Assembly (NCBI GenBank): GCA_034430555.1
Contig: DAOUEM010000362.1
Location: 1,722 to 65,721 of the forward strand
Origin: Anaerolineae bacterium
Lineage (GTDB): Bacteria > Chloroflexota > Anaerolineae > Aggregatilineales > Ch27
Direction: 5' to 3'
Length of the DNA: 64,000 bases
Positions 16,887-33,300 of this stretch are shown piece by piece. A model generated the notes under the pieces. The model was given only the letters and a program-made list of their open reading frames with translations. It was not told where the DNA came from and did no database searches. The translations under genes were made by a program, and so were the position numbers. How positions within the stretch are numbered: the first letter of the stretch is position 1; every line of letters starts with the position of its first letter.

Positions 16887-16917
16887 TGTGGCATGCTGCC
16901 GTACAATCAGGTTAGGG

Positions 16918-18357
16918 ATGGAAGAAGGCATGGTCATTCGACGGTTCCTATTGCTGGGCCTGCTGTGGACGCTGGTCGCCGGGGCGCTGCCGGCGCTGGC
17001 CCAGGGCGATCCCGATGTCTGCCCGGCCATCATGACGGCGGCGCTGGAGTCGACCGGCGATTTGTGCGCGTCGACAGTCCGCGGCGAGGTGTGTGTCGGC
17101 CATCCAACCGTCGTGGCGGACCTCTTCGCCCGGGCGGAGGATGCGGGCGCGGTCTTCGCCAGGCCGGGCGACCGGGCCTCGGCGGCGGCTTTCCAGCGCC
17201 TGCAAGCCGCGGCCCTGGACCCTGACGCCGGCACGTGGGGGGTGGTCCTGGCGCGGCTGGGGGCCGGTCTACCGGAGTCGCCCGCCGACCTCTACCTGAC
17301 CCTGCTGCTGCTGGGCGGCGTGGACCTCGTGCCGGGCGTGCCGCCGCCCCCGCTCTTCGGCCTGACGCCCGCCGGGACGGTCAACGTGCGGCGCGGCCCT
17401 TCCACCCGCGACCCGATCGTCGGGCAGTTCACGCCGGGCCAGAACATAGTCACCGATGGGCGGCTGGCCGACTCGTCCTGGCTGCGCATCCGCTGGGAAG
17501 AAAGCCACGCCTGGGTTTTTGCCGAGCTGGTGCGGCCCCAGGGCGATGTCGCCGGGCTGGACGTGATCGATCCCCATGAGCCGCCGCTGGTCTACGGGCC
17601 GCTGCAGGCTTTTTCCCTGGCGGCGGAGCCTGGTAACCCGGCCTGCCCGGGGATCCCGCCGGGCGGCCTGCTGGCGCAGACGCCGGACGGCGCGGGCGAG
17701 GTCACGCTGCTGATCAACCAGGCCTGGCTGCACATCGCCGGCACTGCCTGGCTCCGAGCCGAACCAGGGTTGATGCGCGTGTGCGCGGTGGCGGGCGGCA
17801 TCCGGCTGCAAACGCGCCCGGGGGATGCTTTTGCCCTGGCGGGGTCGTGTATCTCGCTGCCGCTCGACGATACACCCGCGCCGGCCGCTGCCCCCGACCC
17901 GGCGGAGCCGTTCGAGGCGACTCCCTTAGCGCCCGCCCTGGCCCTGCTGCCGGCAGTGGTCCCGGTCCCCCCGCCGCTGACCGACGACGCCATCGCCGCG
18001 CTGGCCGTGATCCCGCCCTCCGGCGTATGGCAGGCCGTCTATGATACGGCCGCGTTGAGCTGCCCCAGCGGCTTCGGCGGCCCGGTCGACGTGTCCGCGT
18101 CGAACGGGCCGCGTGATATCACTTTCTTGCCGGGTGGGGGACGGGCCGAGCTGACCGAGCCTGAGACCCGCCAGCCGCTGATCTTCGCCCGCACCGCGCC
18201 GGACGTTTTCAGCGCCGCCACCGCCGGGGATGACGGTACTATCGAAGTGGTGACCTGGCGCATCGCCGCCCCGGATCGCCTGGAGGGACTGTCGGTGCTC
18301 ACTTTCCCGGATGACTGCGTGGTAGAGGCGCCCTTTGTCTTGACCCTGGACCGGTAG
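16918..18357 (+). CDS. Secreted Cys-motif / SH3b-like domain protein (paralogue 2 of 3)
   Basis: Signal peptide 'RRFLLLGLLWTLVAGALPALAQ', 'CPAIM...C....GEVCVGH', and SH3b-like 'VNVRRGP...DGRLADSSWLRIRW'. Start ambiguous (16918 or 16930). Confidence 0.65.
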   Translation: MEEGMVIRRFLLLGLLWTLVAGALPALAQGDPDVCPAIMTAALESTGDLCASTVRGEVCVGHPTVVADLFARAEDAGAVFARPGDRASAAAFQRLQAAALDPDAGTWGVVLARLGAGLPESPADLYLTLLLLGGVDLVPGVPPPPLFGLTPAGTVNVRRGPSTRDPIVGQFTPGQNIVTDGRLADSSWLRIRWEESHAWVFAELVRPQGDVAGLDVIDPHEPPLVYGPLQAFSLAAEPGNPACPGIPPGGLLAQTPDGAGEVTLLINQAWLHIAGTAWLRAEPGLMRVCAVAGGIRLQTRPGDAFALAGSCISLPLDDTPAPAAAPDPAEPFEATPLAPALALLPAVVPVPPPLTDDAIAALAVIPPSGVWQAVYDTAALSCPSGFGGPVDVSASNGPRDITFLPGGGRAELTEPETRQPLIFARTAPDVFSAATAGDDGTIEVVTWRIAAPDRLEGLSVLTFPDDCVVEAPFVLTLDR

Positions 18358-18461: not shown

Positions 18462-19700
18462 ATGGTAAAAGTAATGTCGAGATTGATGCTGATCGCAGGG
18501 CTGTGTGTGCTCGCCCTGCCGCTGGCGGCGCTGGCCCAGCAGGGCGAAGAAGCCTGCCCGGCCTTCGTCTTCGAAGCGCTGGAAGTTTCGGCGGCGGCCT
18601 GCGACGGCACCGCCCGCAACGAGGCCTGTTACGGGCATGACGATGTCAGCGCCGAGCCGGTCCCGGACGCGGCGACCTTCACCTTCGCCGCAGCCGGCGA
18701 CATCGTGCCGCTGACCGACCTGCGCCGCTTGCAGCTGGAGGGCATGGACCTGGCCGACCAGACCTGGGGGGTGGCTCTGCTGCGTCTGCAGGCCGACCTG
18801 CCCGATACGCTGCCCGGCCAGAACGTGACGCTGGTGTTGTTCGGTGATGTCGTGCTGGACAACGCGCCCCTGGCAGCCGACGCCGGCGGCGAGTCCTTCG
18901 GCCCGATGCAGGCCTTTTATTTCGCCACCGGCCTGGGCGACCCGCCCTGCGCGGAAGCGCCGGTCAGCGGCCTGCTGATCCAGACGCCGGAGGAGGCCGA
19001 ACAGGCCATCACCCTGACCATCAACGAGGCCACCGTCACCCTCGGCTCGACGGCCTTTTTGCAGGCGGAAGCCGGGGGCGATATGGTGGTCAGCCTGCTG
19101 GATGGCGCGGGCCAGATCACCGCCGCGGGCGAGACCCAGGCCGTGCCCGCCGGGTCGCAGACCCGCCTGCCGCTCGACGACGACCTGGCCGCTGCCGGGC
19201 CGCCCTCCCCGCCGGAGCCGTTCGACGAGACGCGGCTGCTGGGCCTGCCGCTGGACCTGCTGGCGGAAGAAATCGAGGTGCCGCCCCCGCTGACCGAGGA
19301 CGAGATCGCCGACTACCTGGCATCGCAGGCCCCGGTCGGCGGCGGCCTGCCCACACCCGGCATCTGGGTGGTGGAGACGACGGTGGTCAGTATCACCTGC
19401 GAGGGCTTCAGCCAGACGATGGACATGAGCGCCGAAAGCCGGGGCGAGCAGGGCGTGCTCACCGTGGAAGACGGCGGCGCGACGATAGTCGTATCGGACC
19501 TGGAGGAAGGCGTGATCTTCACCTTTGAGCGGGCCGCGGACGGCGCGTACACCGCCTCCTTGACCGTGGAGGGTATGGTGATGGCGATGACGATTACCGT
19601 GCTCGACAGCGAGACGATCGAGCTGCGCCAGGAGGGGGCTCAGGAAGGGTGCACGTTTACGACCATGACGACGATTGTCCGCGTGGGCGACGCCAAGTAG
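18462..19700 (+). CDS. Secreted Cys-motif / FecR-like domain protein (paralogue 3 of 3, no SH3b)
   Basis: Signal peptide 'MSRLMLIAGLCVLALPLAALAQ', 'CPAFV...C..TARNEACYGH', 'TWGVALLRLQADLPDTLPGQ' and 'STAFLQAEAGGDMVVS'. GAGGTGGG RBS. Confidence 0.7.
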   Translation: MVKVMSRLMLIAGLCVLALPLAALAQQGEEACPAFVFEALEVSAAACDGTARNEACYGHDDVSAEPVPDAATFTFAAAGDIVPLTDLRRLQLEGMDLADQTWGVALLRLQADLPDTLPGQNVTLVLFGDVVLDNAPLAADAGGESFGPMQAFYFATGLGDPPCAEAPVSGLLIQTPEEAEQAITLTINEATVTLGSTAFLQAEAGGDMVVSLLDGAGQITAAGETQAVPAGSQTRLPLDDDLAAAGPPSPPEPFDETRLLGLPLDLLAEEIEVPPPLTEDEIADYLASQAPVGGGLPTPGIWVVETTVVSITCEGFSQTMDMSAESRGEQGVLTVEDGGATIVVSDLEEGVIFTFERAADGAYTASLTVEGMVMAMTITVLDSETIELRQEGAQEGCTFTTMTTIVRVGDAK

Positions 19701-19797: not shown

Positions 19798-20658
19798 TTA
19801 ATCCCCCCGGTACGACTGCGCCCGCGCCACCAACTGCTCGACGCATTCCGGCGGCACCTGCTGCTGTCCCAGCCGGATCACGCCGCCCTTTTCCCGGTGG
19901 AAGTCCGTGCCGCCCGTCTGGATCAGGTCGTACTGGCGGGCCAGCACGCGCATCCGCCGGGTGAAGGCCGAGTCGTGGTCCGGGTAGTAGACCTCCAGCC
20001 CGTCCAGGTCGTAGCCGATATATTCCGGCAGCAGCGAGTCGAGATTGGGCACGCGGATGGGGTGGGCCAGCACGATCGCGCCGCCCGCCGCGTGCAGCAG
20101 CCGGATCGCTTCCGGCGGGGAGAGGCGGTAGCGGTCCACAAAGGCCGGGCCGTCGTCGGCGATGTAACGGTCGAAGGCTTCCTGCAGCGAGGCCACGTGA
20201 CCGGCTTCGCGCAGGGCCATCGCCACGTGCGGCCGGGTGACGGCCCCCTTGCCGGCGATGGCGCGCACCCGCTCGTAGCTGATGGCCATGCCAAGTTCAT
20301 TGAGCCGGGCCACCATCTGCTCGGCGCGGGTCAGCCGCACCTCGCGGATGTGGCGCAGTTTGTCCTGCAGAGGCGCATTATCGAGATCGTAGCAGTAGCC
20401 GAGAAAATCCACGGAGAAGCCGCCGCGCGGGGTGGTGGGGTCCGGCTGGAAGGTGGCCAGTTCCAGGCCGGGCAGCACGGTCAGGCCCGTGCCTTCGGCG
20501 GCGGTCATGGCAGCCGGCAGCCCGTTGCTGGTGTCATGATCGGTCAGGGCGATGGCATCCAGTCGCCGCGCCAGGGCCAGGGAAACAACTTCCGACGGCG
20601 TGTGGTCGCCGTCGGATGCAGTGGAATGAATATGCAGATCGATTCGGTGATAAGACAT
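19798..20658 (-). CDS. PHP-domain metal-dependent phosphoesterase (TrpH/YciV-like)
   Basis: 'IDLHIHSTASDG', 'AIALTDHDT' and 'AHP' motifs of the PHP family. Confidence 0.85.
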   Translation of the reverse strand: MSYHRIDLHIHSTASDGDHTPSEVVSLALARRLDAIALTDHDTSNGLPAAMTAAEGTGLTVLPGLELATFQPDPTTPRGGFSVDFLGYCYDLDNAPLQDKLRHIREVRLTRAEQMVARLNELGMAISYERVRAIAGKGAVTRPHVAMALREAGHVASLQEAFDRYIADDGPAFVDRYRLSPPEAIRLLHAAGGAIVLAHPIRVPNLDSLLPEYIGYDLDGLEVYYPDHDSAFTRRMRVLARQYDLIQTGGTDFHREKGGVIRLGQQQVPPECVEQLVARAQSYRGD

Positions 20659-20707: not shown

Positions 20708-21040
20708 TTACCGAGGCTCGACGACGAAACGAAGGGCGGTGCGTTCCTGTCCATCAATGATGGTCTCGGTGAACATGACCACAAAAACGACGTCGATACC
20801 ATCTTCGGCCAGATATCCACGGGCAATAGCCATTGCTTTGACTGCCTGATTGACCGCCCCGGCGCCAATGGCCTGGACTTCGGCGCGGTTGTGTTCGCGG
20901 GTAACGCCAGCGATGGCGCCGGCCACTGCCGTCGACCGCGAGCGGGCGGAAACCTTAATGACATCTACGTGCGGGTGATCTGCTTCAGGGATCGGCGGGT
21001 GATCCACTTCAGGGATCGAAGGAGATGGAGGCGTTTGCAT
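20708..21040 (-). CDS. spoVS: SpoVS-family protein with a 26-aa Pro/His-rich N-terminal extension
   Basis: 'IKVSARSRSTAVAGAIAGV.....AEVQAIGAGAVNQAVKAMAIARGYL' is a near-textbook SpoVS core. AAGGAAAC RBS. Confidence 0.85.
   Translation of the reverse strand: MQTPPSPSIPEVDHPPIPEADHPHVDVIKVSARSRSTAVAGAIAGVTREHNRAEVQAIGAGAVNQAVKAMAIARGYLAEDGIDVVFVVMFTETIIDGQERTALRFVVEPR
20971..21018. repeat. 24-bp tandem duplication inside the SpoVS N-terminal extension
   Basis: gcgggtgatctgcttcagggatcg / gcgggtgatccacttcagggatcg (22 of 24 identical). Encodes 'IPEVDHPP/IPEADHPH'. Confidence 0.7.
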
Positions 21041-21398
21041 GGCTTGGTTTCCTTAGCTAGGTTGTTATTTTTACGTTGACTAAAAGGATTTTTAGGCACC
21101 TTAATTGTATAGGAATTCTGGGTCAAGTCTACAGCGTTTGCGAAAAACATGACAAACGGCCATAACCTTATCGTGACAATAATCATGCCTGTAACAGGAT
21201 ATTTGACAGTTGCCGTTAACAGGATGAAGGCTACCCAAAACCGCTGGATAAAGCCGCCAGCGCGGCTACAATCGGCAGCCGCACATGCCCCGCGCCGCCC
21301 CCATCAGTGGAAAACGCGCCGCTGCGGCGGGGTGGACCACCGGGCCGGGACCGGGCCAGTACCTTTGGGGGATAATCCGGCAGGGGGGCGAATCGGGC

Positions 21399-21427
21399 TT
21401 GCCATGTGGCAGGGCGGCGTCTATCAT
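21399..21427 (+). promoter_or_regulatory. Sigma70-like promoter inside the non-coding region (TTGCCA-17-TATCAT)
   Basis: -35 TTGCCA at 21399-21404, a 17-nt spacer, and -10 TATCAT at 21422-21427. Downstream hairpins with short T-runs lie at about 21462-21494 and 21529-21551. Confidence 0.35.
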
Positions 21428-21723
21428 ATCAGCCAGCCTGACGCGTCACGGCGCGGCGGGCGCGGGGTACCGGCCCCGCTCGGGCTGCTTTTACCAGGGT
21501 TAGGCCTTAGGGAGGCGTCCGCGCCGCCGGCCCGGCTGCCGGGTAAATTTTAACATAACCCGCGCGCGGCACCGGTGAACGGGCGGCCGATCCCAAGATG
21601 TTGGGGAGCAGCCGGGGGCTTCCCCTGTTGGTAGCCCTTAGCAGCCCACGGACTCGGCACACAGTGATGGTCTGACCGGCAGGGCTAACGTTAAAGATTG
21701 GTGCGAGTTTTACCGAAGCTTAA

Positions 21724-21744
21724 AACCTTAAATATTTTAAGGTT
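21724..21744. promoter_or_regulatory. Perfect AT-rich palindrome AACCTTAAA-TAT-TTTAAGGTT upstream of the dnaA promoter
   Basis: 9-bp arms with a 3-bp centre, ending 16 bp upstream of the -35 hexamer of the putative dnaA promoter. Confidence 0.4.
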
Positions 21745-21760
21745 GGGGCGGGGTTTTGGG

Positions 21761-21789
21761 TTGAGCCGTTGCCGACTCTCTGCTAGAAT
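21761..21789 (+). promoter_or_regulatory. Putative dnaA promoter (TTGAGC-17-TAGAAT)
   Basis: -35 TTGAGC at 21761-21766, exactly 17-nt spacer, -10 TAGAAT at 21784-21789. Implies a 5-prime UTR of about 160 nt. Confidence 0.5.
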
Positions 21790-21956
21790 TAGGGTAACGG
21801 TCCAGATAGGAGCAACCGTCGTTCCCCGGCGCTCCCTCGTCTCAAACATCGACACCATCTCGACAGGTCAGATTACATCGAACCTGACGGCCACGGCACG
21901 GCAGATGTGTTTGTTATTATCCGTTGTGGCTATCGCACCGCTGTTCAGGGGGCTTT

Positions 21957-23453
21957 ATGACTAGTGGGAGTACATCCACCAGTGCACGTATGAATGCGCG
22001 CGATGCCTGGCAGGCCACGCTGGGCCAGCTTGAGTTGCAGCTCAACCGGCCAACCTTTGAGACCTGGGTCAAAGGGGCCGAGCTGCTGGCCTACGAAGAT
22101 GGCTCGTTCATCGTCAGCGTGCGCAACGCCTACGTCAAAAGCTGGCTGGAACGCCGCCTGTACGGCTCGATCCGGCGCACCCTGGCCGATCTCTTTGGCC
22201 GGGTGGTGGAAGTGCGTTTCGTGGTGTACGATCCCCTTGAAGAGCAGGACAACCTGGGGCCGCTGTGGCAGGGCGATGGCCAGCCGGGTGAACAACCGCT
22301 CGACGACATGACCGCCGACGAGGCTTACGACGACTACGCCGACGAGGCCTTCGACGACCGCCAAGAAGCGCCCGTTTACCCGCCAGAGGATTATGACGAT
22401 CACCCCACCCGCGTCGAGCGCCGGCGCAGCAGCGAGGGCAACCTCAACCGCCGCTACACCTTCGATACCTTCGTCGTCGGCAGCAGCAACCAGCTGGCGC
22501 ACGCCGCGGCGATGGCCGCCGCCGAGCGCCCCGGCACCGCCTATAACCCGCTTTTTATTTACGGTGATGTCGGCCTGGGCAAGACCCACCTGCTGCACGC
22601 CATCGGCAACGCCTGCCAGGACGACGGGCTGAGCGTGCTCTATATCTCCTCGGAGCAGTTCACCAACGACCTGATCGAGGCCATCCGCGCCCAGAATACC
22701 AACACCTTCCGCAACCGCTACCGCCGCGTCGATGTGCTGCTGGTGGACGATATCCAGTTCATCGCCGGCAAGGAAAGCACGCAGGAAGAGTTCTTCCACA
22801 CCTTTAACGCCCTGCACAGCGCCAACGCCCAGATCGTGCTGGCCAGCGACCGCCGTCCCCGTTCGATGGCGACCCTGGAGGAGCGGCTGCGCTCGCGCTT
22901 TGAGTGGGGCCTGATCGCCGACATCCAGCCGCCCGACCTGGAAATGCGCATCGCCATCCTCAACGAGAAGGCCGAGCAAAGCGGCCTGGAACTGACGGAA
23001 AACCTGGCCGAGGTCATCGCCAACCAGATCCGCGGCAACATCCGCGAGATGGAAGGGGCGCTGACGCAAATCCTGGCCCAGTCCCGCCTGACCTATCAGC
23101 CGCTCTCGGAAGACCTGGTCCGGCGCGTGCTGAAGGAGTTCCGCGCTCCCCGCCGCACGCAGACGGTCGAGGCCGTGCTGGAAGCCGCCGCCGAATTCCA
23201 TAACCTGTCGGTGGACGACCTGACCGGCCCGCGCCGCACCAAAAAGATCGTCCTGGCGCGCCAGCAGGCCATGTACCTGGCGCGGGAAGCGACTGAAGCC
23301 TCCCTGCCTCAGATCGGGGCGGCATTGGGCGGGCGTGATCACACCACTGTCATGCATGGCTACAGCAAGATGGCTGAAGCCATTGAAACCGACGAAGAAC
23401 TGCGCCAGGAGATCAAGCAGATTCGCCTGCGCCTCTTCGAGGACGACTATTAG
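21957..23453 (+). CDS. dnaA: Chromosomal replication initiator DnaA
   Basis: AAA+ 'YNPLFIYGDVGLGKTHLLHAIG', 'LLVDDIQF', sensor/box VII 'LRSRFEWGL', and C-terminal DNA-binding 'GGRDHTTVMHG'. AGGGGG RBS before ATG 21957 (alternative starts at 21924 and 21990). Confidence 0.95.
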   Translation: MTSGSTSTSARMNARDAWQATLGQLELQLNRPTFETWVKGAELLAYEDGSFIVSVRNAYVKSWLERRLYGSIRRTLADLFGRVVEVRFVVYDPLEEQDNLGPLWQGDGQPGEQPLDDMTADEAYDDYADEAFDDRQEAPVYPPEDYDDHPTRVERRRSSEGNLNRRYTFDTFVVGSSNQLAHAAAMAAAERPGTAYNPLFIYGDVGLGKTHLLHAIGNACQDDGLSVLYISSEQFTNDLIEAIRAQNTNTFRNRYRRVDVLLVDDIQFIAGKESTQEEFFHTFNALHSANAQIVLASDRRPRSMATLEERLRSRFEWGLIADIQPPDLEMRIAILNEKAEQSGLELTENLAEVIANQIRGNIREMEGALTQILAQSRLTYQPLSEDLVRRVLKEFRAPRRTQTVEAVLEAAAEFHNLSVDDLTGPRRTKKIVLARQQAMYLAREATEASLPQIGAALGGRDHTTVMHGYSKMAEAIETDEELRQEIKQIRLRLFEDDY

Positions 23454-23528: not shown

Positions 23529-24332
23529 ATGACACAGGAGCCGCCCATGGATGACCTGGCCCGTTTCAACCAGCAGCGCTGGGATGCGCTGGTGAAGGCT
23601 AACGTGGCCTATTCCCGCCCCCTGCTGGACCTGGACGCCGCATCGGCCCGGCGGCTGGTCGACCCGTTCGACGTAATGGGCGACGTGGCCGGTAAAAACG
23701 TGCTCTGCCTGGCCAGCGGCGGCGGCCAGCAGTCGGCGGCCTTCGGGCTGCTTGGCGCGCAGGTGACCGTGCTCGATTTTTCCGCGGCGCAGTTGGCACG
23801 GGACCGGCAGGCGCTGGATCACTACGGCCTGGCCGCGGCGCTGATGCAGGGTGATATGCGCGACCTCTCCGCTTTTGCGGATGACGCCTTCGACCTGGTG
23901 TGGCAGGCCTACTCGATCAACTTCGTGCCGGCGGCGGCCCCGGTCTTCGACGAGGTGCGGCGTGTGCTCCGCGGCGGCGGGCAGTATCGACTGGAGTGGG
24001 CCAACCCCTTCCAGATGGGAGCGGACGAAACCAGTTGGACCGGCCAGGGTTATGTGCTGTCGCGAGTGTACGGCGACGGCGAAGTCCACTTCGACGACCA
24101 GGACTGGGAAGTATGGGCCGAGGACGGCACCTGCCAGCAGGTCGCCGGCCCGCGCGAATTCAACCACTCGCTGAGCACGGTCATCAACGGGCTGCTGGCC
24201 CGCGATTTCCGTTTGCTGGGCTTGTGGGAAGAGGCCAGCGGCGATCCGGAGGCCGATCCGGGCAGTTGGGCGCACTACAAGGCCGTCGCGCCACCTTATC
24301 TCACAATCTGGGCGCGGCTCGCACCGGCCTGA
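23529..24332 (+). CDS. Class I SAM-dependent methyltransferase
   Basis: Motif I 'VLCLASGGGQQS' and motif II-like 'VTVLDFS'. AGGAGG RBS. Confidence 0.8.
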   Translation: MTQEPPMDDLARFNQQRWDALVKANVAYSRPLLDLDAASARRLVDPFDVMGDVAGKNVLCLASGGGQQSAAFGLLGAQVTVLDFSAAQLARDRQALDHYGLAAALMQGDMRDLSAFADDAFDLVWQAYSINFVPAAAPVFDEVRRVLRGGGQYRLEWANPFQMGADETSWTGQGYVLSRVYGDGEVHFDDQDWEVWAEDGTCQQVAGPREFNHSLSTVINGLLARDFRLLGLWEEASGDPEADPGSWAHYKAVAPPYLTIWARLAPA

Positions 24333-24368: not shown

Positions 24369-24397
24369 TTGTCAAAATTCCACGTTACCAGTAAGAT
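24369..24397 (+). promoter_or_regulatory. Putative promoter of the TIR gene (TTGTCA-17-TAAGAT)
   Basis: -35 at 24369-24374, 17-nt spacer, -10 at 24392-24397, about 50 nt upstream of the ATG. Confidence 0.45.
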
Positions 24398-24447
24398 ATC
24401 AGTTAATTAGTGGGGAAACAGTTCCGGCCCAGGCCAGGAGGCGGATC

Positions 24448-26292
24448 ATGCTGCGTATCTATATCAGCTACCAGCTTCAATCCAGCGCTGCCCTTGCCAA
24501 ACAGATCGCCGACCATCTGAAAATGCAGGGCTTCTTCGTCTACGTAGACCTGCAGCGTATCGAGAAGCGCGGTTATTTCCCCGACCTGCTCAAGCACGAC
24601 ATCGCGGCCAGCGACGTCTTCATCTGTCTGGTGGCCGAAAGCACTTTTCAATCAGGGTTGGTCCGCCGCGAGATTCGACATGCGCACAGCCTGGGCAAGC
24701 CCATGATCCCCATTCTGCAGGAGGACTACTACCACCTGCCGGAAAAACCCCCGCCGCCGGACCGGTACGTCGCGGCGCTCCTGGCGGAGAAATACGTGCC
24801 TTTCCTGGACCGCAGCAAAGTCAAAAACGAGGTCAGCCTGGCGCGCCTGGGGCAGCTTTTAGCGCAGGCGGAGGCGCAGCAGGACACATCCGACTCGCTG
24901 GCCGGGTTGTGGCGGCTCGTCAGCCGGTTGGTCATGGCGACGGTAGGTCTGGCCGGTGCGGCCCTGGTACTGGTGGTGATCTTCCAGATGGTGGCCGATC
25001 TGAGGCCGGATTTCTCCGGGGGGCAGGGGCCGACGGCGGTCCCTCCCACGGTGGTCCCAGCTACGGTGGGCGTGGTGCCGGTCGCGCCGACTACGACGGA
25101 AACCGCCTCACCTGTACCGCCGCCCTCGCTGACCATGCCCGTCGGGCCGACTACGACGGAAACCGCTTCATCTGTACCGCCGCCCTCGCTGACCATGCCC
25201 GTCGGGCCGACTATCGCTCAGGCCCCGCCGACTGGTGCACTGTCTGCGACTATTCCGGCCATCGACGGGCTGCCATCAATGACGGAGCCGGTGCCGCCTG
25301 ACTCCTGGCTGGCGGAATTTGTGATCACCGCCACCGCGCTGGCCGATGCCTCCGGCGACCTGCCTACTGCGCCCTCGCTGACGGTTCAGGCGGGCTGGCG
25401 GCTGGTCTTCGCCTCGGACCGGGGCGGCGTACCCAACCTCTATATGGTCGATGCGTCCTGTTTGTTGGACGGCTGCACTGGCGCTGCCGTTGCCCCTTTA
25501 ACTGCCGCGCTGGCTGGCAGTAGTTCGCCGGCCTGGTCGCCGGACGGGGGGCGGCTGGCCTTTATCTCGGCGCGGGATGGCGCGCCCGCTGTCTGGTTGG
25601 CCGGGGCAGATGGCAGTGTTCCCACCAGGTTAACGGCTGACCTCCCGGTGGGGCAGGCCAGTGGGGATGCCTCCGCCTGGTCGCCGGACGGGACGCGCCT
25701 GGTCTACACGGCGATCCGTGACAACGGCGTGCCGGTTCTTTCCGTGATCGGGATCGATGGGACCGGCCTGCGCCGCCTGACCGGCCTGGATGGGGGCGAA
25801 GGCGGCCCTGCCTGGTCGTGGACGACGGATCGATTGGCCTTCAGCGCGGATCGCGTCGGCGACTGGGAGCTGTACACCGTCGACATGGCCTGCCTGGACG
25901 CGCCGGGCGGCTGCGACGCCAGCATCCGCCGCCTGACCGACCACCCCGGCCTGGATACCTCGCCCGCCTGGTCGTCCGATGGCAGCCGTATCGCCTTCCG
26001 TTCGGCGCGCGACGGGAACCCGGAGATATATGTCATGGCCGCCGACGGCACTGACCTGCGCCGTGTGACCACTCATCCGGCTGCCGACGATCATCCCACC
26101 TGGTCGCCGGACGGGCGCTGGCTCGTTTTCCAATCGCAGCGGGATGGCGATTGGGACCTCTACGGGGTGGCAACCACCTGCCTGGACGTCACTCCGACCG
26201 GTGACGCCTGTGAGGCCGTCCTGCGCCGCCTGACGGACAGCATCGGCTTTGACGACCAGCAGCCGGCCTGGGAGCCGTTGATCAGCCCGTAG
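24448..26292 (+). CDS. TIR-domain / single TM / Pro-Thr linker / PD40 (TolB-like) beta-propeller protein
   Basis: N-terminus 'RIYISYQ...AKQIADHL..QGFFVYVD....G....L...I..SDVFICLV...S..S.LVRREI..A...GKPMIPIL' fits the TIR_2 pattern. TM helix 'LVMATVGLAGAALVLVVIF'. Five to six 'WSPDG'-type repeats at the C-terminus. AGGAGG RBS. Confidence 0.75.
   Translation: MLRIYISYQLQSSAALAKQIADHLKMQGFFVYVDLQRIEKRGYFPDLLKHDIAASDVFICLVAESTFQSGLVRREIRHAHSLGKPMIPILQEDYYHLPEKPPPPDRYVAALLAEKYVPFLDRSKVKNEVSLARLGQLLAQAEAQQDTSDSLAGLWRLVSRLVMATVGLAGAALVLVVIFQMVADLRPDFSGGQGPTAVPPTVVPATVGVVPVAPTTTETASPVPPPSLTMPVGPTTTETASSVPPPSLTMPVGPTIAQAPPTGALSATIPAIDGLPSMTEPVPPDSWLAEFVITATALADASGDLPTAPSLTVQAGWRLVFASDRGGVPNLYMVDASCLLDGCTGAAVAPLTAALAGSSSPAWSPDGGRLAFISARDGAPAVWLAGADGSVPTRLTADLPVGQASGDASAWSPDGTRLVYTAIRDNGVPVLSVIGIDGTGLRRLTGLDGGEGGPAWSWTTDRLAFSADRVGDWELYTVDMACLDAPGGCDASIRRLTDHPGLDTSPAWSSDGSRIAFRSARDGNPEIYVMAADGTDLRRVTTHPAADDHPTWSPDGRWLVFQSQRDGDWDLYGVATTCLDVTPTGDACEAVLRRLTDSIGFDDQQPAWEPLISP
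25081..25212. repeat. 60-bp in-frame tandem repeat (about 2.2 copies) in the TIR protein linker
   Basis: 25081-25140 versus 25141-25200 is 57 of 60 identical. Encodes 'PTTTETAS[PS]VPPPSLTMPVG'. Confidence 0.9.
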
Positions 26293-26310
26293 GCCCAGCC
26301 ATAAACAGGC

Positions 26311-26351
26311 AAACGGACTCCTCGTCAACCGGGGAGTCCGTTTCATTTTTT
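26311..26351. terminator. Bidirectional intrinsic terminator between convergent genes
   Basis: Perfect 11-bp stem aaacggactcc/ggagtccgttt, an 11-nt loop, then cattttttt. An A-run on the other side serves the minus-strand gene. Confidence 0.7.
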
Positions 26352-26387
26352 ACTGTAAGCGGGCGATTATTGCGCCATCGCCGAACG

Positions 26388-27155
26388 CTAATTTGAGGGC
26401 GGCTCGGCGGAACGCAGCCGCTCCCCGACCCAGGCGCGGGCGGGATGGTTCTGCGCCTCCAGGGCGGCGATCACGGTCTCCACATCGTATTCGACGCGGT
26501 TGATGTCCACGTGGGCCATGCCGGCCTCGAACGTCACCAGTGCGTAGGAAGCCCGCCGGTCACCGTCGAAGGGCAGGCCGACGCTGCCGGGATTGATCAT
26601 GCGCCAGTGGCCCAGGTCGCGGTCCATGGGGCGGTGGGTGTGCCCGCCGAAGGCCAGCCGCCCCTGCCGGTCCAGCAGCGCGTCCAGGATTTCGTCGTCG
26701 GCCACATCCGGCAGCAGGACCAGCTCGTCGTCGCCCGGCGCGGCGTGGAACCCGACCACCCAGCCGTAACCTTCAACTTCCACATCGAGGTCCGTGCCCA
26801 GCTTGAGCAGGTATTCGGCTTCCGCCCAGCCGAGTTTTTCCGTCGTCCAGGCGAAGTTTTTGTCGCGCTCGGCCATCAGCGTGACGATGTTGCCCCACGA
26901 TTCCTCGGTAGGGGGCGGCCAGCCGGGCCGCTGCCCGCGCACCACGTAGCGGTCGGTATTGCCCTGGATGACCCTGGTGGTCTCTTCCGGCAGGGCGCGG
27001 ATCGTCTCGATGCAGGCGACGGGTTCCGGGCAAAAGGCCACCAGGTCGCCCAGAATCCAGGTCAGGTCCGCACCGCCCCTGGCTTTGAGGTCGGCCAGGA
27101 CGGCTTCCAGCGCCAGGTGATTGCCGTGGATGTCCGATAGCACCGCGAGTCGCAT
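26388..27155 (-). CDS. Calcineurin-like metallophosphoesterase
   Basis: 'LAVLSDIHGN', 'ILGDLV', 'GNTD' and 'GGHTH' motifs. Start taken at the ATG at 27155, after GGAG. Confidence 0.8.
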   Translation of the reverse strand: MRLAVLSDIHGNHLALEAVLADLKARGGADLTWILGDLVAFCPEPVACIETIRALPEETTRVIQGNTDRYVVRGQRPGWPPPTEESWGNIVTLMAERDKNFAWTTEKLGWAEAEYLLKLGTDLDVEVEGYGWVVGFHAAPGDDELVLLPDVADDEILDALLDRQGRLAFGGHTHRPMDRDLGHWRMINPGSVGLPFDGDRRASYALVTFEAGMAHVDINRVEYDVETVIAALEAQNHPARAWVGERLRSAEPPSN

Positions 27156-27319
27156 GGGGGGAGTCTCCTTCTCCGTGTGTCGTCTGCGGGCCATTATACC
27201 GCCTGTTGCCGTGGCAGGGGGAATTGGATGGGGCGTTTGGCGGGGAGGGGGCGGGCATACAAAAACACCGGGACCATGCGGCCCCGGTCAGGTGTCATGC
27301 GGATGAGTGACGCGCTAAC

Positions 27320-30314: not shown

Positions 30315-33300
30315 ATGTCGGACGAACGTCCGTTACCCCAGGATGAAGGACTGCCCGCCTGGTTACGGGGGCGCATTCACCCCTATCCCGGCGAGCCTGC
30401 CCAGCCGTTACCGCCCGCTGGCGCTGGTGCGCCGGGTGATGCGGGTCAGCCCAGTGAGGGCGATGCCATCGACCTGCTGGCCATCTTTGACGCCGCCGGC
30501 GAACCGGGCGCCCCCGAGATTCCCGTTTCCGATGCGGGCGAGGTGCTGCCCTGGGACGCGGATGCCGGCGCGGACCAGGCGCTGCCCTCCGCCGGGGAAT
30601 TAAAGGGCCTGACCGGCGAGCTGCCCTGGATGTCCGACGTGGTGGCCGATGCCTCACCGGATGCGCTGGCCGGACCTCCCGCCGCTGAGTCGCCTGTCCA
30701 GGACGCTGCGCTGCCCTGGCTGGAGGACGAAACGCCGTCCTCGGTCGCCGAAGACGACGTGCCGATGGCCGACTGGTTCGACCAGGCCCCGCCGCCGCCC
30801 GCCATCCCCGCGGAAGAAGGCCCCGGTTTCCTGGAGGATGACGCGACCCTGGCTGGCGCTTTTGACGAGCCGTCGGCCGCCCCGGAGCAGGGCGAGGAGA
30901 CCCCGGATTGGCTGGTCGTGGCTGATGCCCTGGCCGGCGATGAAGCGCCGCCTGATGCCCCGGCGGAGGATGCCGTGCCCGACTGGCTGTCGACCGGCGA
31001 TCTCACGCCGGAAGCAGCCGCGGGAATTCCCGCGGAGGCCCTCGCTCCCGCCGACGCGCCCGACTGGCTGGCCGCCGTCGACGACTTCGGCGGCGACGAG
31101 GATGAGGACGACGAATACCAGCCCGCCGCCTCCGCCGAACCGGTCGGCGATCCGGAGTGGTTGATCACCGATACCGGCGAAGGTCCGGTCGATTTGCTGC
31201 CGGACGACAGCGGCCTGACCTACGAGGAGTGGGAGCAGACGCAGGACGAGGAAGAAGCGGCGCCTTCCCCGGAAGAACTGCTGGCCCAGGAGGTTCCCGA
31301 CTGGTTCGCCGCCATCGACGAGGACGAGGAAGGGGCGGCTCCGCCGCTCGATGCCGCTGCGCCCGCCGCCGAAGGCGCGGATTTCGTGCCGGACTGGTAC
31401 CTCGGCCTGGAAGAGCAGGATACCTCGGAAGCGCCGGAGTGGTTCAATGGCCTGGATTTCTCCGCCGACGCGCTGACTGCCGAGCCGGTCCTGCCGGAAG
31501 CCCCGGAACCGCCGACACCGGAGTCGGCGCCTGCTGCCCCGGCAACGCCCACCGCGGGTGAGGCGCCCGACTGGCTCCAGGACCTGGGCGAAGACATGCC
31601 TGCCGCCGAACAGGCCAAGCCGCCCACCGGGGAACTGGACGAGCTGTTCGGGGATATGGATTTTTCGGCGGATGCCGGGCCGGTGGAGGAAGTGCCGGAC
31701 TGGTTCACGGGTATTGGCGACGACGCACCCGCCCCGCCGCCCGCCGCGCCGCGCCCGCCCACCGCGCCGCTGGACGACGTGGGCGATCTGTTTGGCGACC
31801 TGGACTTCACGCCCGATGATGCCGCCGCGCTGGCCGAGGCCGCCGTCGGGGACGAGGGCGAAAAGATATCGCCGGATTGGTTGAGCGCTATCGGCCAAGA
31901 GACGGGACTGGTTTCCGACCTGCCCGAATTGGACGCCGAGCCTGACTTTGATTTCCTGGCGGACTTACCGTCCGAAGGGGCCGACGCCGACCTAGACGAC
32001 CTGTTTGGCGAGCTGGACGAGTCCGTGGACGAGTCCGTGGACGCAGCTGATTTTGAGGAAGCGGCTGCGCCCCCGCCGCCGTCCCCGGAGCCGTCAGTCC
32101 TGGAGCCGGGCCAAGCCCCTGACTGGCTGGCCGACATCCAGCCGGAAGATATGCCGTTGACCACCGACGGTCTGCTGGCCGGCGGCGGCGATTTTATGGC
32201 CGTTATCGAAGACGAGTTGGGCGAATTCGACCCGTTTGCCGAGGCCGGTGTCAGCCCGGATTCACAGCTGGTGGCCCCCGCCGATGGCACCCTGGACCTG
32301 GAGGCGCTGCTGTCCGAAGGTGACCTGTCGCCTACGTCCGGCGTGGACCGCCCGCCGCCTGCCGCTCCTGGCCCGGCGCCCACCGGCGATGATGCCGAGA
32401 TGCCCGGCTGGCTGCTGGACGCCCGTCCGGACGAGAGCCGTGGCGGCTTCTCCGTGGTGGACGCGGCTATGCGCCAGGCGGAGGAAGCGCCGGTCGAGGA
32501 GCTGACCGATCGCCTCCAGCACCTGCGCGAGGCCACCCGCCGCGCCGCCGAAGCCGCCGAGGATGCGCCGCCAGCGCCATCTGATGCGGCCAGCCAGGTC
32601 CTGGCCGGGGTCACCGACGGCCTTATGCCGACTCACCTGTTCGAGGAGCCGACCGGGCCGGAAGTCATGCTCACCGTGGAGCTGGACGAGGCCCAGGAAG
32701 CCCGCGTCGCCACCCTGGAGGCGCTGCTCGGCCTGGACGCGCTGCACGAGGGCGAGCCCGCCTACGACGAAGACGGCGAGCCGATCCCCGTCGACTACGA
32801 GCAGGAAGCCCTCCGCGTGCGGGAGGCCGCGCGCCGCGCCCGGGCCCGCAGCCGGTTCAAGCCGGGCCGCGTGGTGATCAGCCTGCTGCTGGTGGTGGCG
32901 GCTGTGATCCCCTTCCTGGTGGACCTGTCCTCATTCTTGCAGTTGCCGGTCGCCGCGCTGGACACGGCGCGCCACGGCGAACTGGACGCCCAGATCGAGC
33001 GGCTGGAGCGGGGCGACCTGGTGCTGGTCGGCTTTGAGTACGGCCCCACCAGCGCCGGCGAGATGGACGTGCTGGCCGAGACTCTACTCAGCCATATCCT
33101 GATCAAAGGCGCGGTGCCCGTGATCGTCAGTACCAACCCGGCGGGCACGCTGCACTCGCGCGACGTGCTGGGTGCCCTGGCCGGCGACGAGTGGCTGCTG
33201 GCCCACATGGGCCGTCCGGCCAATCGCCCGCTGGAGACCCCGGACGACTACGTGATCCTGGCCTACCAGCCCGGCGAGTCGGTCGGGCTGCGTTACCTGG

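What the first reader, a model, noticed from the sequence alone, without database searches (positions are those of the whole stretch)
24369..26351. Toll-like-receptor-style architecture: cytoplasmic TIR domain, one TM helix, extracytoplasmic PD40 beta-propeller
Seen in sequence: residues 1 to about 100 match the TIR_2 pattern ('IYISY', 'G.FVYVD', 'SDVFICLV', 'S.LVRREI..A', 'MIPIL'), including a Glu in the position of the NADase catalytic residue. One hydrophobic helix follows, then a Pro/Thr linker containing a 60-bp tandem repeat, then five to six 'WSPDG' TolB-type blades. The gene has its own promoter-like element and a strong terminator. Established knowledge: bacterial TIR domains act as NAD+-consuming or signal-generating effectors in anti-phage systems (Thoeris, some CBASS, Avs and Argonaute systems), and those proteins are usually cytosolic. 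Inference: an outside-sensing beta-propeller wired through the membrane to a TIR effector would be a receptor-type layout analogous to eukaryotic TLRs. I cannot match it to a described defence-system layout, and no partner gene (ThsA-like or cyclase) is adjacent.
Basis: partly seen in the sequence, partly recalled or inferred. Interest (0 to 1): 0.7.

Follow-up and report, generated by a model that had tools for sequence, protein, structure and literature searches.

The report
Membrane-anchored bacterial TIR receptor with propeller
A filamentous-bacterium (Anaerolineae) gene encodes a single-pass membrane protein with a SARM1-like TIR domain inside the cell and a TolB-like six-bladed propeller outside, one member of an apparently undescribed family of bacterial transmembrane TIR receptors; two NAD-pocket residues are mutated in this copy.

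Summary
ORF 24448-26292 (+, 614 aa) encodes an N-terminal TIR_2 domain, one TM helix, a disordered Pro/Thr stalk holding a 60-bp x2.3 repeat, and a six-bladed TolB-like PD40 propeller. A promoter-like site, an AGGAGG RBS and a 14-bp-stem terminator flank it.

TIR-in / propeller-out topology is supported by the positive-inside rule across 41 relatives, three invariant Cys pairs in the propeller, and reuse of the same propeller type behind wHTH-TM and kinase-TM modules.

New findings:
1. It belongs to a sizeable TIR clade in which 61 of the 150 best representatives carry a TM helix. Forty-one are TIR-TM-ectodomain (SH3b, FGE-sulfatase, PD40, WD40), 14 have a TM helix just before a C-terminal TIR (some in TLR order), and 6 have a distal TM, including the TIR-kinase-TM type.
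2. The catalytic Glu (E75 = SARM1 E642) is kept. Two pocket residues near-invariant in the clade (Arg10 = R570, Trp71 = W638) are Leu only here and in its one close ortholog, so NADase competence is doubtful.
3. The gene sits next to dnaA in three diverged Anaerolineae genomes, with no defence partner, which argues against a mobile defence gene.

It most likely signals by ligand-driven TIR clustering; the output is unknown.

The parts
24369..24397 (+). Sigma-70-like promoter candidate (TTGTCA, 17 nt, TAAGAT)
   Evidence: 9 of 12 matches; 1 site found against 0.3 expected in shuffles. Not conserved in the two orthologous loci, so it is only a candidate.
24438..24443 (+). Ribosome-binding site AGGAGG, 5 nt before the ATG
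   Evidence: Read directly from the sequence.
24448..26292 (+). CDS of the 614-aa TIR-TM-PD40 protein (stop codon included)
   Evidence: The identical protein is called on GCA_964477285.1 and on a JGI metagenome contig.
24448..24891 (+). Cytoplasmic TIR domain: residues 1-122 form the core and the alphaE helix runs to about residue 148
   Evidence: TIR_2 at 42 bits against a cutoff of 28. SARM1 TIR phmmer E 5.6e-7. AF2 pLDDT 84, pTM 0.82. Foldseek SARM1 TM 0.72-0.77. It is the best-conserved part between orthologs at 64%.
24475..24477 (+). Codon Leu10, at the position of SARM1 R570. It is Arg in 136 of 150 clade members and Leu only here and in P0002
   Evidence: PMC9381744 lists the F565-R570 region among residues known or predicted to act in catalysis or substrate binding, and reports that R570Q loses basal NADase activity.
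24658..24660 (+). Codon Leu71, at the position of SARM1 W638. It is Trp in 131 of 150 clade members and Leu only here and in P0002
   Evidence: PMC8266388 (W638 mutant has impaired kinetics). PMC7075850 (W71 and E75 bind ligand).
24670..24672 (+). Codon Glu75, aligned with the catalytic Glu642 of SARM1
   Evidence: alignment. Conserved in 149 of 150 clade members and invariant in all 41 TM-anchored relatives.
24928..24984 (+). Single transmembrane helix (residues 161-179), continuous with a long juxtamembrane helix at 124-183 in the model
   Evidence: Kyte-Doolittle maximum of 2.69 and the only peak above 1.6. AF2 helix 124-183. K+R is 2 on the N side and 1 on the C side; the family average is 3.6 against 0.85.
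25000..25389 (+). Disordered Pro/Thr/Ala/Val-rich stalk (residues about 185-314)
   Evidence: 27 Pro and 21 Thr in 135 residues. pLDDT below 50. Only 37% identity to the ortholog, which also differs in length.
25076..25213 (+). 60-bp tandem repeat, 2.3 copies, encoding a duplicated PVGPTTTETAS(P/S)VPPPSLTM unit within the stalk
   Evidence: TRF score 248 with 94% matches. Absent from ortholog P0002.
25399..26277 (+). Extracytoplasmic six-bladed PD40 (TolB-like) beta-propeller, residues 318-610, with three Cys-clamped loops (C338/C343, C482/C489, C578/C588)
   Evidence: PD40 157.6 bits. AF2 pLDDT above 90. Foldseek TolB E 5e-20, rmsd 2.7 A. Cys pairs invariant in the ortholog. Loops of this type were found only in the query and P0002 among the top 120 propeller homologs.
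26311..26353 (+). Intrinsic-terminator-like hairpin (14-pair stem, 8 GC pairs, 5-nt loop) followed by a T-run

Best explanation
The gene encodes a type II (N-in/C-out) single-pass membrane receptor of an Anaerolineae (Chloroflexota) bacterium.

Shown: a SARM1-type TIR domain lies at the cytoplasmic N-terminus. Its last helix runs almost directly into the only TM helix. A flexible Pro/Thr stalk follows, and then a TolB-like six-bladed PD40 propeller with three conserved Cys-clamped loops outside the membrane. The same propeller type serves as the external module of wHTH-TM-PD40 and Ser/Thr-kinase-TM-PD40 proteins. The same TIR clade is joined through a TM helix to many other ectodomains. The TIR therefore occupies the output slot of a modular one-component transmembrane sensor.

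Inferred mechanism: binding of an extracytoplasmic, probably multivalent envelope- or surface-associated ligand to the propeller clusters the receptors in the membrane plane. That clustering drives assembly of the membrane-proximal TIR domains, which is the general way TIR domains are switched on. Assembly produces the cytoplasmic output.

In this orthologous pair the catalytic Glu and the BB-loop Asp and Gly are kept, but two substrate-pocket residues (Arg10, Trp71) are both replaced by Leu on a long branch. The output is therefore probably a remodelled or attenuated NAD-type reaction, or a purely assembly-based signal, and not the fast NAD+ depletion of canonical defence TIRs.

The gene is vertically inherited at the replication origin and has no partner gene. 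It is therefore more likely a resident envelope or cell-surface sensing function of a filamentous bacterium than a mobile anti-phage module.
For: Domains.

Topology: there is no TM or signal sequence before the TIR; the positive-inside rule holds in 39 of 41 relatives with p = 4e-8; the Cys pairs are invariant; the ectodomain Cys count is even in 25 relatives and odd in 5.

Modularity: of the 150 best TIR representatives, 41 are TIR-TM-ectodomain, 14 have a TM helix just before a C-terminal TIR, and 6 have a TM further from the TIR or several TM helices. The loci L007-L011 are TIR-kinase-TM proteins. Ectodomains include SH3_3 (10), FGE-sulfatase (8), PD40 (6), WD40-type propellers and CARDB. 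The mirror class includes signal/anchor-VWA-TM-TIR. The closest propellers sit behind a TM in 14 of 17 wHTH proteins and 7 of 7 kinase proteins. The nearest TIR neighbours of the PD40-type proteins mostly carry other ectodomains.

Pocket: E75 in 149 of 150, D34 in 145 of 150, G42 in 106 of 150; R10 and W71 are Leu only in the query and P0002. The third positional ortholog, P0123, keeps RR and W. Importance of these residues: PMC9381744, PMC8266388, PMC7075850.

The TIR is the best-conserved segment at 64%.

Core-genome position: PHP, SpoVS, dnaA, then the TIR-TM-PD40 gene in three genomes, with DnaA at 76% and 68% identity.

There are no defence hits among the neighbours.
Against: Nothing here is experimental. 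The ligand, oligomerisation and any enzymatic activity are all untested.

TM and topology calls rest on hydropathy and charge bias, not on a dedicated predictor or experiment. For the query alone the charge bias is weak (2 against 1).

Only two close orthologs exist in about 1.8 billion representatives, so the Leu10/Leu71 state rests on two sequences.

A conserved position beside dnaA does not exclude a defence role.

The retained Glu, BB loop and SARM1-like fold could still support full NADase activity.

The NJ tree used for the ectodomain-shuffling inference is crude.
Confidence: 0.55

Rival explanations
1. It is an anti-phage abortive-infection sensor. The external propeller detects phage adsorption or envelope damage, the TIR domains assemble, and NAD+ is depleted or a cADPR-type signal is made, which stops growth of the infected cell in the filament.
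For: The TIR is of the NADase/defence branch: Foldseek hits are SARM1, Cat1, SPARTA, ThsB and plant TNL TIRs, with weak ThsB-family PADLOC hits at 7.9e-8. The catalytic Glu and the BB loop are kept. The gene evolves much faster than its neighbours, 46-49% identity against 76-81%, as surface and conflict genes do. The FGE-sulfatase and SH3b ectodomains in relatives recall the putative antigen sensors of multicellular bacteria (PMC10907252).
Against: Two pocket residues that matter for NADase activity are lost. The gene is a positional ortholog next to dnaA in three diverged genomes, not an island gene. There is no ThsA-like, cyclase or other defence protein nearby. It does not reach any curated defence-family cutoff: ThcB4 scores 42 against 220, and ThsB_TIR 18.5 against 21.2.
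Confidence: 0.2
2. The TIR is catalytically dead. It acts only as a homotypic assembly, adaptor or decoy module that pairs with canonical (Arg/Trp-containing) TIR-TM or TIR-kinase-TM paralogs of the same cell, modulating their signalling as non-enzymatic TIR adaptors do in animals.
For: Arg10 and Trp71 are jointly replaced by Leu on a long TIR branch, at distance 0.56 to the nearest other TIR against about 0.35-0.41 for the other PD40-type proteins. The Glu alone does not predict activity (PMC7075850). The MAG that carries ortholog P0002 also encodes a canonical paralog on another contig (L012). TIR-kinase fusions in the clade show the TIR working beside another output domain. The TIR is nevertheless under strong constraint at 64% identity.
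Against: The Glu is invariant and the BB-loop Asp and Gly are kept, which is not expected for long-term loss of catalysis, although n = 2. No partner is encoded nearby. The paralog content of the window's own genome could not be examined.
Confidence: 0.2
3. It is mainly a structural or housekeeping envelope protein, a TolB-like propeller tethered to the membrane and working in cell-wall or sheath maintenance. The TIR would be only a cytoplasmic anchor or a vestige.
For: The propeller is structurally closest to TolB. The gene has a conserved core-genome position. Secreted SH3_3 proteins, typical cell-wall binders, are conserved upstream in the same block.
Against: The TIR is the most conserved part of the protein, not a decaying remnant. 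The protein lacks TolB's N-terminal domain and falls far below the TolB equivalog cutoff, 164 against 343. No tol-pal genes are nearby. The propeller diverges fast and is swapped for unrelated ectodomains in relatives.
Confidence: 0.05

Closest known systems
SARM1 / TIR-1 TIR domain (NAD+ hydrolase branch of the TIR superfamily)
   Same: It is the best match by sequence (E 5.6e-7) and by structure (TM 0.72-0.77). It shares the 5-strand/5-helix fold. Y8, D34, G42 and E75 align with Y568, D594, G601 and the catalytic E642.
   Different: Identity is about 23%. R569/R570 are Gln-Leu and W638 is Leu. There are no ARM or SAM domains. The query is membrane-anchored through a C-terminal TM helix instead of forming a soluble octamer.
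Thoeris ThsB and other bacterial defence TIR proteins (TIR-SAVED, TIR-STING, SPARTA TIR-APAZ, Cat1)
   Same: It has a TIR domain with the catalytic Glu, and weak profile hits to ThsB-family models. Activation by induced assembly is the expected shared logic (inference).
   Different: All of those are cytosolic and sense intracellular cues, and they have partner or fused intracellular sensor domains. Here the sensor is extracytoplasmic, no ThsA or other partner is adjacent, the scores fall below curated cutoffs, and the gene is a syntenic core gene.
Animal Toll-like receptors
   Same: It is a single-pass membrane protein with a repeat-built external ligand-binding domain and a cytoplasmic TIR next to the membrane. 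Clade relatives such as P0131 even have the ectodomain-TM-TIR order.
   Different: The order is reversed, with the TIR N-terminal (type II). The ectodomain is a PD40 propeller, not LRR. The TIR belongs to the SARM1-like branch, and no TLR or MyD88 TIR appears in the top 50 structural hits. The likeness is one of layout, not homology of the whole protein.
One-component transmembrane sensors with PD40 ectodomains (ToxR/CadC-like wHTH-TM-PD40 proteins; Hanks-type Ser/Thr kinase-TM-PD40 proteins)
   Same: The layout is identical: a cytoplasmic output module, one TM helix, then an external PD40 propeller. Their propellers are the closest sequence relatives of this one at 30-44% identity.
   Different: The output module is a TIR domain instead of a DNA-binding domain or a kinase.
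TolB (Tol-Pal system)
   Same: It has a six-bladed PD40 propeller with rmsd about 2.7 A over about 300 columns.
   Different: Identity is about 21%. It lacks the TolB N-terminal domain and signal peptide, scores below the TIGR02800 cutoff (164 against 343), and has no tol-pal context.

Membership tests
TIR domain superfamily (Pfam TIR_2, PF13676) | Profile match above the curated gathering score | tested here: met
   42.0 bits against a cutoff of 28, residues 4-98.
TIR domain superfamily (Pfam TIR_2, PF13676) | Flavodoxin-like fold of five parallel strands alternating with five helices | tested here: met
   AF2 elements E3-7, H10-26, E30-33, H46-54, E57-62, H70-81, E86-91, H106-112, E117-119, H124-148. 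Foldseek SARM1 TM 0.72-0.77.
NADase-competent TIR domains (SARM1-like / bacterial defence TIRs) | Catalytic Glu in the alphaC region | tested here: met
   E75 aligns with SARM1 E642 and is conserved in 149 of 150 clade members.
NADase-competent TIR domains (SARM1-like / bacterial defence TIRs) | Substrate-pocket Trp four residues before the Glu, and Arg after the betaA 'SY' motif (SARM1 W638, R570) | tested here: not met
   Both are Leu (L71, L10), whereas 131 of 150 and 136 of 150 clade members have Trp and Arg. Functional importance: PMC8266388, PMC9381744, PMC7075850.
NADase-competent TIR domains (SARM1-like / bacterial defence TIRs) | Measured NAD+ cleavage or cADPR-isomer production | not testable with these tools
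   This needs a biochemical assay of residues 1-150.
Thoeris (ThsB + ThsA) | ThsB-type TIR above the curated cutoff | tested here: not met
   Pfam ThsB_TIR 18.5 against 21.2. NCBIfam ThcB4 42.4 against 220. The PADLOC ThsB hit is only 29.8 bits.
Thoeris (ThsB + ThsA) | Adjacent ThsA-type effector (SIR2 or Macro/SLOG, or TM-Macro) | tested here: not met
   The neighbours are a methyltransferase, a metallophosphoesterase, DnaA, SpoVS and unknowns. None gives a defence hit beyond a generic methyltransferase match.
TolB (Tol-Pal system) | Equivalog score, N-terminal TolA-binding domain, signal peptide and tol-pal operon | tested here: not met
   TIGR02800 164 against 343, matching the propeller only. 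The N-terminus is a TIR domain. There are no tol-pal genes.
TolB (Tol-Pal system) | Six-bladed PD40 beta-propeller | tested here: met
Toll-like receptors | LRR ectodomain and type I order (ectodomain-TM-C-terminal TIR) | tested here: not met
   The ectodomain is PD40 and the order is TIR-TM-ectodomain.
Toll-like receptors | One TM helix separating an external sensor from a cytoplasmic TIR | tested here: met
   This is bioinformatic evidence only; there is no experimental topology.
Transmembrane TIR receptor clade of Anaerolineae (defined here) | Clade-specific TIR (FISYRR...DVF[VI]CL...S.WV..EI.HA...K.[ML]IPVFQE) followed within 70 residues or fewer by a single TM helix and a variable ectodomain | tested here: met
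   The query is one of 41 such proteins among the 150 best representatives. It is a divergent member, with QL in place of RR and L in place of W.

The most novel reading that the evidence does not exclude
Anaerolineae, and possibly other filamentous bacteria, possess a diversified and so far uncharacterised repertoire of true outside-in transmembrane TIR receptors. The formats include type II (TIR-TM-ectodomain), type I (ectodomain-TM-TIR) and TIR-kinase-TM. In these, interchangeable external binding domains (PD40, SH3b, FGE-sulfatase/C-lectin-like, VWA, WD40) switch on a cytoplasmic SARM1-type TIR by clustering. This would be a prokaryotic counterpart of TLR-style surface immunity or cell-cell surveillance. 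The origin-linked copy studied here would be a neofunctionalised member with a remodelled pocket.
Probability: 0.35. Interest if true: 0.85.

Novelty: new variant of a known kind. Interest (0 to 1): 0.62.

Why it matters
All characterised bacterial TIR systems (Thoeris, TIR-STING and TIR-SAVED CBASS effectors, SPARTA, TIR-NLR/Avs, Cat1) are cytosolic and respond to intracellular cues.

A family that couples a SARM1-type TIR through one membrane helix to exchangeable extracellular binding domains would show that bacteria also use TIR domains for outside-in signalling. That is the logic thought to be characteristic of animal TLR and IL-1R receptors.

It would give a tractable system for asking how membrane-plane clustering activates a TIR domain. 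It would also widen the set of candidate surface-surveillance or kin-recognition systems in multicellular bacteria.

The specific Arg/Trp-to-Leu remodelling, with the catalytic Glu retained, is a natural experiment on what the pocket residues contribute.

Public annotation misses all this. The one named relative is labelled 'DPP IV N-terminal domain-containing protein'.

Tried and rejected
1. The word-index homolog search with the TIR+TM part alone returned nothing. The exhaustive HMMER search replaced it.
2. A metagenome-contig scan for more orthologs found only the query's own contig, so the Leu10/Leu71 state rests on two sequences.
3. The last homolog search, with a TIR profile, returned mostly short fragments. 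It added only an 'Aggregatilineales' source name.
4. I considered the downstream convergent metallophosphoesterase as a functional partner, for example a hydrolase of ADPR or cyclic nucleotides. It is conserved next to the gene in two genomes at 81% identity. In the third positional ortholog it is replaced by an acetyltransferase and a rhomboid, it is convergently transcribed, and it has no defence-library hit. I rejected it as an obligate partner.
5. A regulatory link to dnaA or oriC found no support. The upstream regions of the three orthologs share no conserved element. DnaA-box matches are at chance level and none lies near the gene. Repeats in the SpoVS-dnaA spacer are unremarkable.
6. 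The PADLOC 'mad2' hit of the upstream methyltransferase is a generic SAM-methyltransferase match, and that gene is absent from both other loci. I rejected it.
7. Literature searches for TIR+PD40, TIR-TM, membrane-bound bacterial TIR, and TIR with Chloroflexi found no description of this architecture. The library is incomplete, so this is absence of evidence only.
8. I did not attempt dN/dS between orthologs, because synonymous sites are certainly saturated at 46-49% protein identity.
Full report
**1. Observation**

The window holds an ORF at 24448..26292 on the + strand (614 aa). No in-frame start is available upstream.
- **Domains.** Pfam gives TIR_2 over residues 4-98 (42.0 bits, cutoff 28) and PD40 repeats (157.6 bits, six stretches).
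- **TM helix.** The protein has one hydrophobic peak (residues 157-187, core 161-179, Kyte-Doolittle 2.69) and no other window above 1.6.
- **Linker.** The segment after the helix is rich in Pro, Thr, Ala and Val (27 Pro and 21 Thr in 135 residues). It contains a 60-bp tandem repeat at 25076-25213 (2.3 copies, 94% matches).
- **Expression signals.** A promoter-like TTGTCA-17-TAAGAT lies at 24369-24397, and a 14-pair hairpin with a T-run lies at 26311-26343. AGGAGG sits 5 nt before the ATG.

**2. The TIR domain**
- **Closest structures.** The best solved-structure match by sequence is the SARM1 TIR domain (E 5.6e-7).
- **Aligned residues.** In that alignment, query Y8, D34, G42 and E75 fall on SARM1 Y568, D594, G601 and E642. 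Because these numbers match the residue names used in the literature, the alignment register is cross-checked.
- **Models.** An AlphaFold model of residues 1-150 (pLDDT 84, pTM 0.82) has the five-strand/five-helix TIR topology.
- **Structural neighbours.** Foldseek ranks SARM1 and C. elegans TIR-1 first (TM 0.72-0.77). Plant RPS4, Cat1, SPARTA TIR-APAZ and ThsB follow. No TLR or MyD88 TIR is among the top 50.

The domain therefore belongs to the NAD-cleaving branch of the superfamily.

**3. The catalytic pocket is not canonical**

An exhaustive phmmer search of 1.84 billion representatives with residues 1-152 gave 1039 hits at E <= 1e-3 and 245 at E <= 1e-10. Only the query and one ortholog (P0002) scored at E <= 1e-30.

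In an alignment of the 150 best hits:
- E75 is conserved in 149 of 150, D34 in 145 and G42 in 106.
- Position 10 is Arg in 136 of 150, and position 71 is Trp in 131 of 150.
- Leu occurs at both of these positions only in the query and P0002.

These two positions correspond to SARM1 R570 and W638. What the literature says about them:
- PMC9381744 lists F565-R570, D594 and E642 as residues known or predicted to act in catalysis or substrate binding. It finds R570Q devoid of basal NADase activity.
- PMC8266388 reports roughly 100- to 400-fold lower kcat for all the TIR mutants it examined. It names W638 among those with a more than 4-fold rise in Km.
- PMC7075850 states that W71 and E75 (its consensus numbering) bind ligand. 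[quoted passage not shown] PMC9153377 adds that NADase activity was not found in mammalian TLR2.

This lineage has remodelled the pocket. The query and P0002 also sit on a long branch: their distance to the nearest other TIR is about 0.56, whereas the other PD40-type proteins lie about 0.35-0.41 from their nearest neighbours. Even so, the TIR is the best-conserved segment between the two orthologs, at 64% identity. The propeller is at 50%, the stalk at 37% and the juxtamembrane/TM segment at 30%.

**4. The ectodomain**
- **Model.** The full-length AlphaFold model (pLDDT 80) gives a confident propeller over residues 318-610 with six blades. Strand 603-608 closes the ring. Segment 185-314 is disordered, and one long helix (124-183) runs from the end of the TIR through the membrane segment.
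- **Structural match.** Foldseek's best hits are TolB structures (for example 1crz: E 5e-20, rmsd 2.7 A over 302 columns, about 22% identity). S9 peptidase propellers follow.
- **Not TolB.** TIGR02800 scores 164 against a cutoff of 343 and matches only the propeller. There is no TolB N-terminal domain, and no tol-pal gene is nearby.
- **Cys-clamped loops.** Three short loops (C338/C343, C482/C489, C578/C588), each following the third strand of a blade, are invariant in the ortholog. Among the 120 closest propeller proteins they occur only in these two.

**5. Topology**
- The TIR is at the extreme N-terminus with nothing hydrophobic before it, so it should remain cytoplasmic.
- Across the 41 relatives with the same layout, the 15 residues on the TIR side of the helix carry 3.56 Lys+Arg on average, against 0.85 on the far side. 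The TIR side is higher in 39 of the 41 and never lower (Wilcoxon p = 4e-8). The query itself has 2 against 1.
- Ectodomain Cys counts are even in 25 relatives and odd in 5, and the stalks are Pro/Thr/Ser-rich.
- The closest propeller homologs sit behind a TM helix in wHTH-TM-PD40 proteins (14 of 17) and kinase-TM-PD40 proteins (7 of 7). The N-terminal domains of those proteins must be cytoplasmic to act.

All of this is bioinformatic evidence, but it is consistent: TIR in, propeller out.

**6. A family, not a one-off**

The 150 best TIR representatives fall into these classes:

| Class | Count |
|---|---|
| N-terminal TIR, one TM within 70 residues, variable C-terminal region | 41 |
| TM followed within 70 residues by a C-terminal TIR | 14 |
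| N-terminal TIR with a TM further away or several TM helices | 6 |
| Several TIR domains | 17 |
| TM far upstream of the TIR | 7 |
| No TM detected | 65 |

- **Ectodomains of the 41.** They include SH3_3 (10), FGE-sulfatase (8), PD40 (6), WD40-type propellers, CARDB and Golvesin_C.
- **Mirror class.** It includes true TLR-order proteins such as P0131 (signal/anchor, VWA, TM, TIR) and P0148 (PPC domain, TM, TIR).
- **Genome loci.** A scan of GTDB species representatives with TIR-derived patterns found nine confirmed loci, all Chloroflexota/Anaerolineae. Six are TIR-kinase proteins; five of them (1122-1176 aa) have a TM helix near residue 500 followed by SH3b and a lectin-like ectodomain, and the sixth (L006) is cut off by the contig end. 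One is TIR-TM-SH3b-PD40x5-FGE-sulfatase.
- **Ectodomain exchange.** PD40-type members do not cluster by TIR sequence, so ectodomains appear to have been exchanged (the NJ tree is crude).
- **Public annotation.** The one named PD40-type relative (Aggregatilineaceae) is annotated 'DPP IV N-terminal domain-containing protein'.

**7. Genomic context**

The window is a contig of assembly GCA_964477285.1. The gene lies downstream of dnaA (21924..23453), separated only by a SAM-methyltransferase gene. SpoVS and a PHP-domain gene lie upstream of dnaA. A metallophosphoesterase gene converges on it from downstream.

The same order (PHP, SpoVS, dnaA, TIR-TM-PD40) occurs in two other Anaerolineae MAGs:

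| Protein | Identity to the window, H21_247 (GCA_034435395.1) | Identity to the window, GCA_964529715.1 |
|---|---|---|
| DnaA | 76% | 68% |
| SpoVS | 87% | 83% |
| TIR receptor | 46% | about 38% |

- The phosphoesterase is 81% identical where it is present.
- The third genome's protein (P0123, 1139 aa) has extra SH3b and FGE-sulfatase domains and keeps the canonical Arg-Arg and Trp. The Leu/Leu state is therefore derived.
- No neighbour matches a defence-system model beyond a generic methyltransferase hit. The protein itself reaches no curated defence cutoff.

The gene is thus a vertically inherited, origin-proximal, fast-evolving core gene without a partner. That profile is unlike a typical mobile defence module.

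**8. Mechanism**

*Shown:* the domain identities, their order, the single helix, and the modular reuse of both the TIR clade and the propeller type in transmembrane proteins.

*Inferred from established knowledge:* TIR domains (SARM1, plant TNLs, TIR-SAVED, TIR-STING, SPARTA) are switched on by self-association, and their active sites form across subunits.

*Proposed mechanism:* ligand binding to the external propeller clusters the receptors in the membrane. Clustering brings together the TIR domains, which are held close to the membrane by the alphaE/juxtamembrane helix. The assembled TIRs generate the cytoplasmic output.

Because Arg10 and Trp71 are lost while Glu75, Asp34 and Gly42 are kept, I consider a remodelled or attenuated N-glycosidase, or a purely assembly-based signal, more likely than fast NAD+ depletion. 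I put confidence in the receptor model as a whole at about 0.55.

The rivals are:
- a classical abortive-infection sensor (0.2);
- a catalytically dead adaptor or decoy for canonical paralogs (0.2), given that the MAG carrying P0002 also encodes a canonical paralog, L012;
- a mainly structural envelope protein (0.05).

**9. Comparison with known systems, and novelty**

It works like a one-component transmembrane sensor (ToxR-like, or Hanks kinases with PD40 ectodomains) with a TIR as the output. In layout it resembles a TLR, but the order is reversed, the ectodomain differs, and the TIR is SARM1-type.
- It is a member of the TIR_2 family.
- It is not a member of ThsB/Thoeris, TolB or the TLRs, because defining features were tested and not met.

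Full-text searches found no description of bacterial TIR-TM-ectodomain receptors. Reviews mention only generically that TIRs can be fused to repeat or sensor domains, or to short TM regions (PMC9153377).

I rate it a new variant of a known kind. Interest is 0.62, mainly for the family-level finding and for the natural pocket remodelling.

**10. Limits**
- There is no experimental evidence of any kind.
- TM and topology calls come from hydropathy and charge bias only.
- The orthologous group has two close members and one distant positional ortholog.
- The class counts come from the best 150 of 1039 representatives.
- The taxonomic range was sampled by pattern-limited scans.
- The rest of the query genome could not be searched for paralogs.

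Noticed in passing
window 21924-23453 (+), with 20708-21040 (-) and 19798-20658 (-): dnaA is followed not by dnaN but by a methyltransferase gene and then the TIR receptor gene. The block PHP, SpoVS, dnaA, TIR-TM-PD40 is conserved in three Anaerolineae genomes. The 880-bp SpoVS-dnaA spacer (21040-21924, lower GC) may hold oriC, but canonical DnaA boxes are at chance level and repeats there are unremarkable.
   Followed up: partly
window 23529-24332 (+): A SAM-dependent methyltransferase gene sits between dnaA and the TIR gene only in this genome. It is absent at that position in the two other syntenic loci, which suggests a lineage-specific insertion. It gives a generic PADLOC 'mad2' hit.
   Followed up: partly
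window 26388-27194 (-): A convergent calcineurin-like metallophosphoesterase is 81% identical in the H21_247 MAG at the same position, but it is replaced by an acetyltransferase and a rhomboid in the third syntenic genome. Enzymes of this superfamily can hydrolyse ADP-ribose or cyclic nucleotides, so a link to a TIR product is conceivable but unsupported.
   Followed up: partly
window 16888-18357 (+) and 18462-19700 (+): Two paralogous secreted proteins, each with a signal-like N-terminus. A bacterial SH3 domain scores just under the Pfam cutoff in the first copy (26.1 against 27 bits); the second has no Pfam hit. Their counterparts are conserved upstream in the same syntenic block of the third genome. 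They may be cell-wall-binding proteins.
   Followed up: no
window 30315-34214 (+): A 1299-aa, extremely acidic, Pro/Ala/Asp/Glu-rich protein with many 'PDW(L/F)'-type short repeats, a central hydrophobic segment, a Thr/Pro-rich C-terminal region and a C-terminal TM helix. It has no Pfam family on record.
   Followed up: no
L005/L016 8001-11420 (P0123): The positional ortholog in GCA_964529715.1 ends in an FGE-sulfatase (C-type-lectin-like) domain, the fold that diversity-generating retroelements commonly diversify in putative antigen sensors of multicellular bacteria (PMC10907252). I did not look for a DGR.
   Followed up: no
L008 11434-12621 (+): In the Phototrophicaceae genome a second gene of the same TIR clade lies immediately downstream of the TIR-kinase-TM gene, giving tandem TIR genes.
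   Followed up: no
L015 (P0159 locus, Aggregatilineaceae): The non-origin-linked TIR-TM-PD40 gene is flanked by a GAF-rich histidine kinase and by response-regulator-GAF-guanylate-cyclase genes. This is a signalling-rich neighbourhood and not a defence island.
   Followed up: no
representatives P0121, P0125, P0158, P0166, P0187, P0192, P0204, P0223, P0235: Very large proteins (1400-2300 aa) carry three to seven tandem TIR domains of this clade, and most have one or more TM helices after the TIR array. Many have Tyr in place of the pocket Trp.
   Followed up: no
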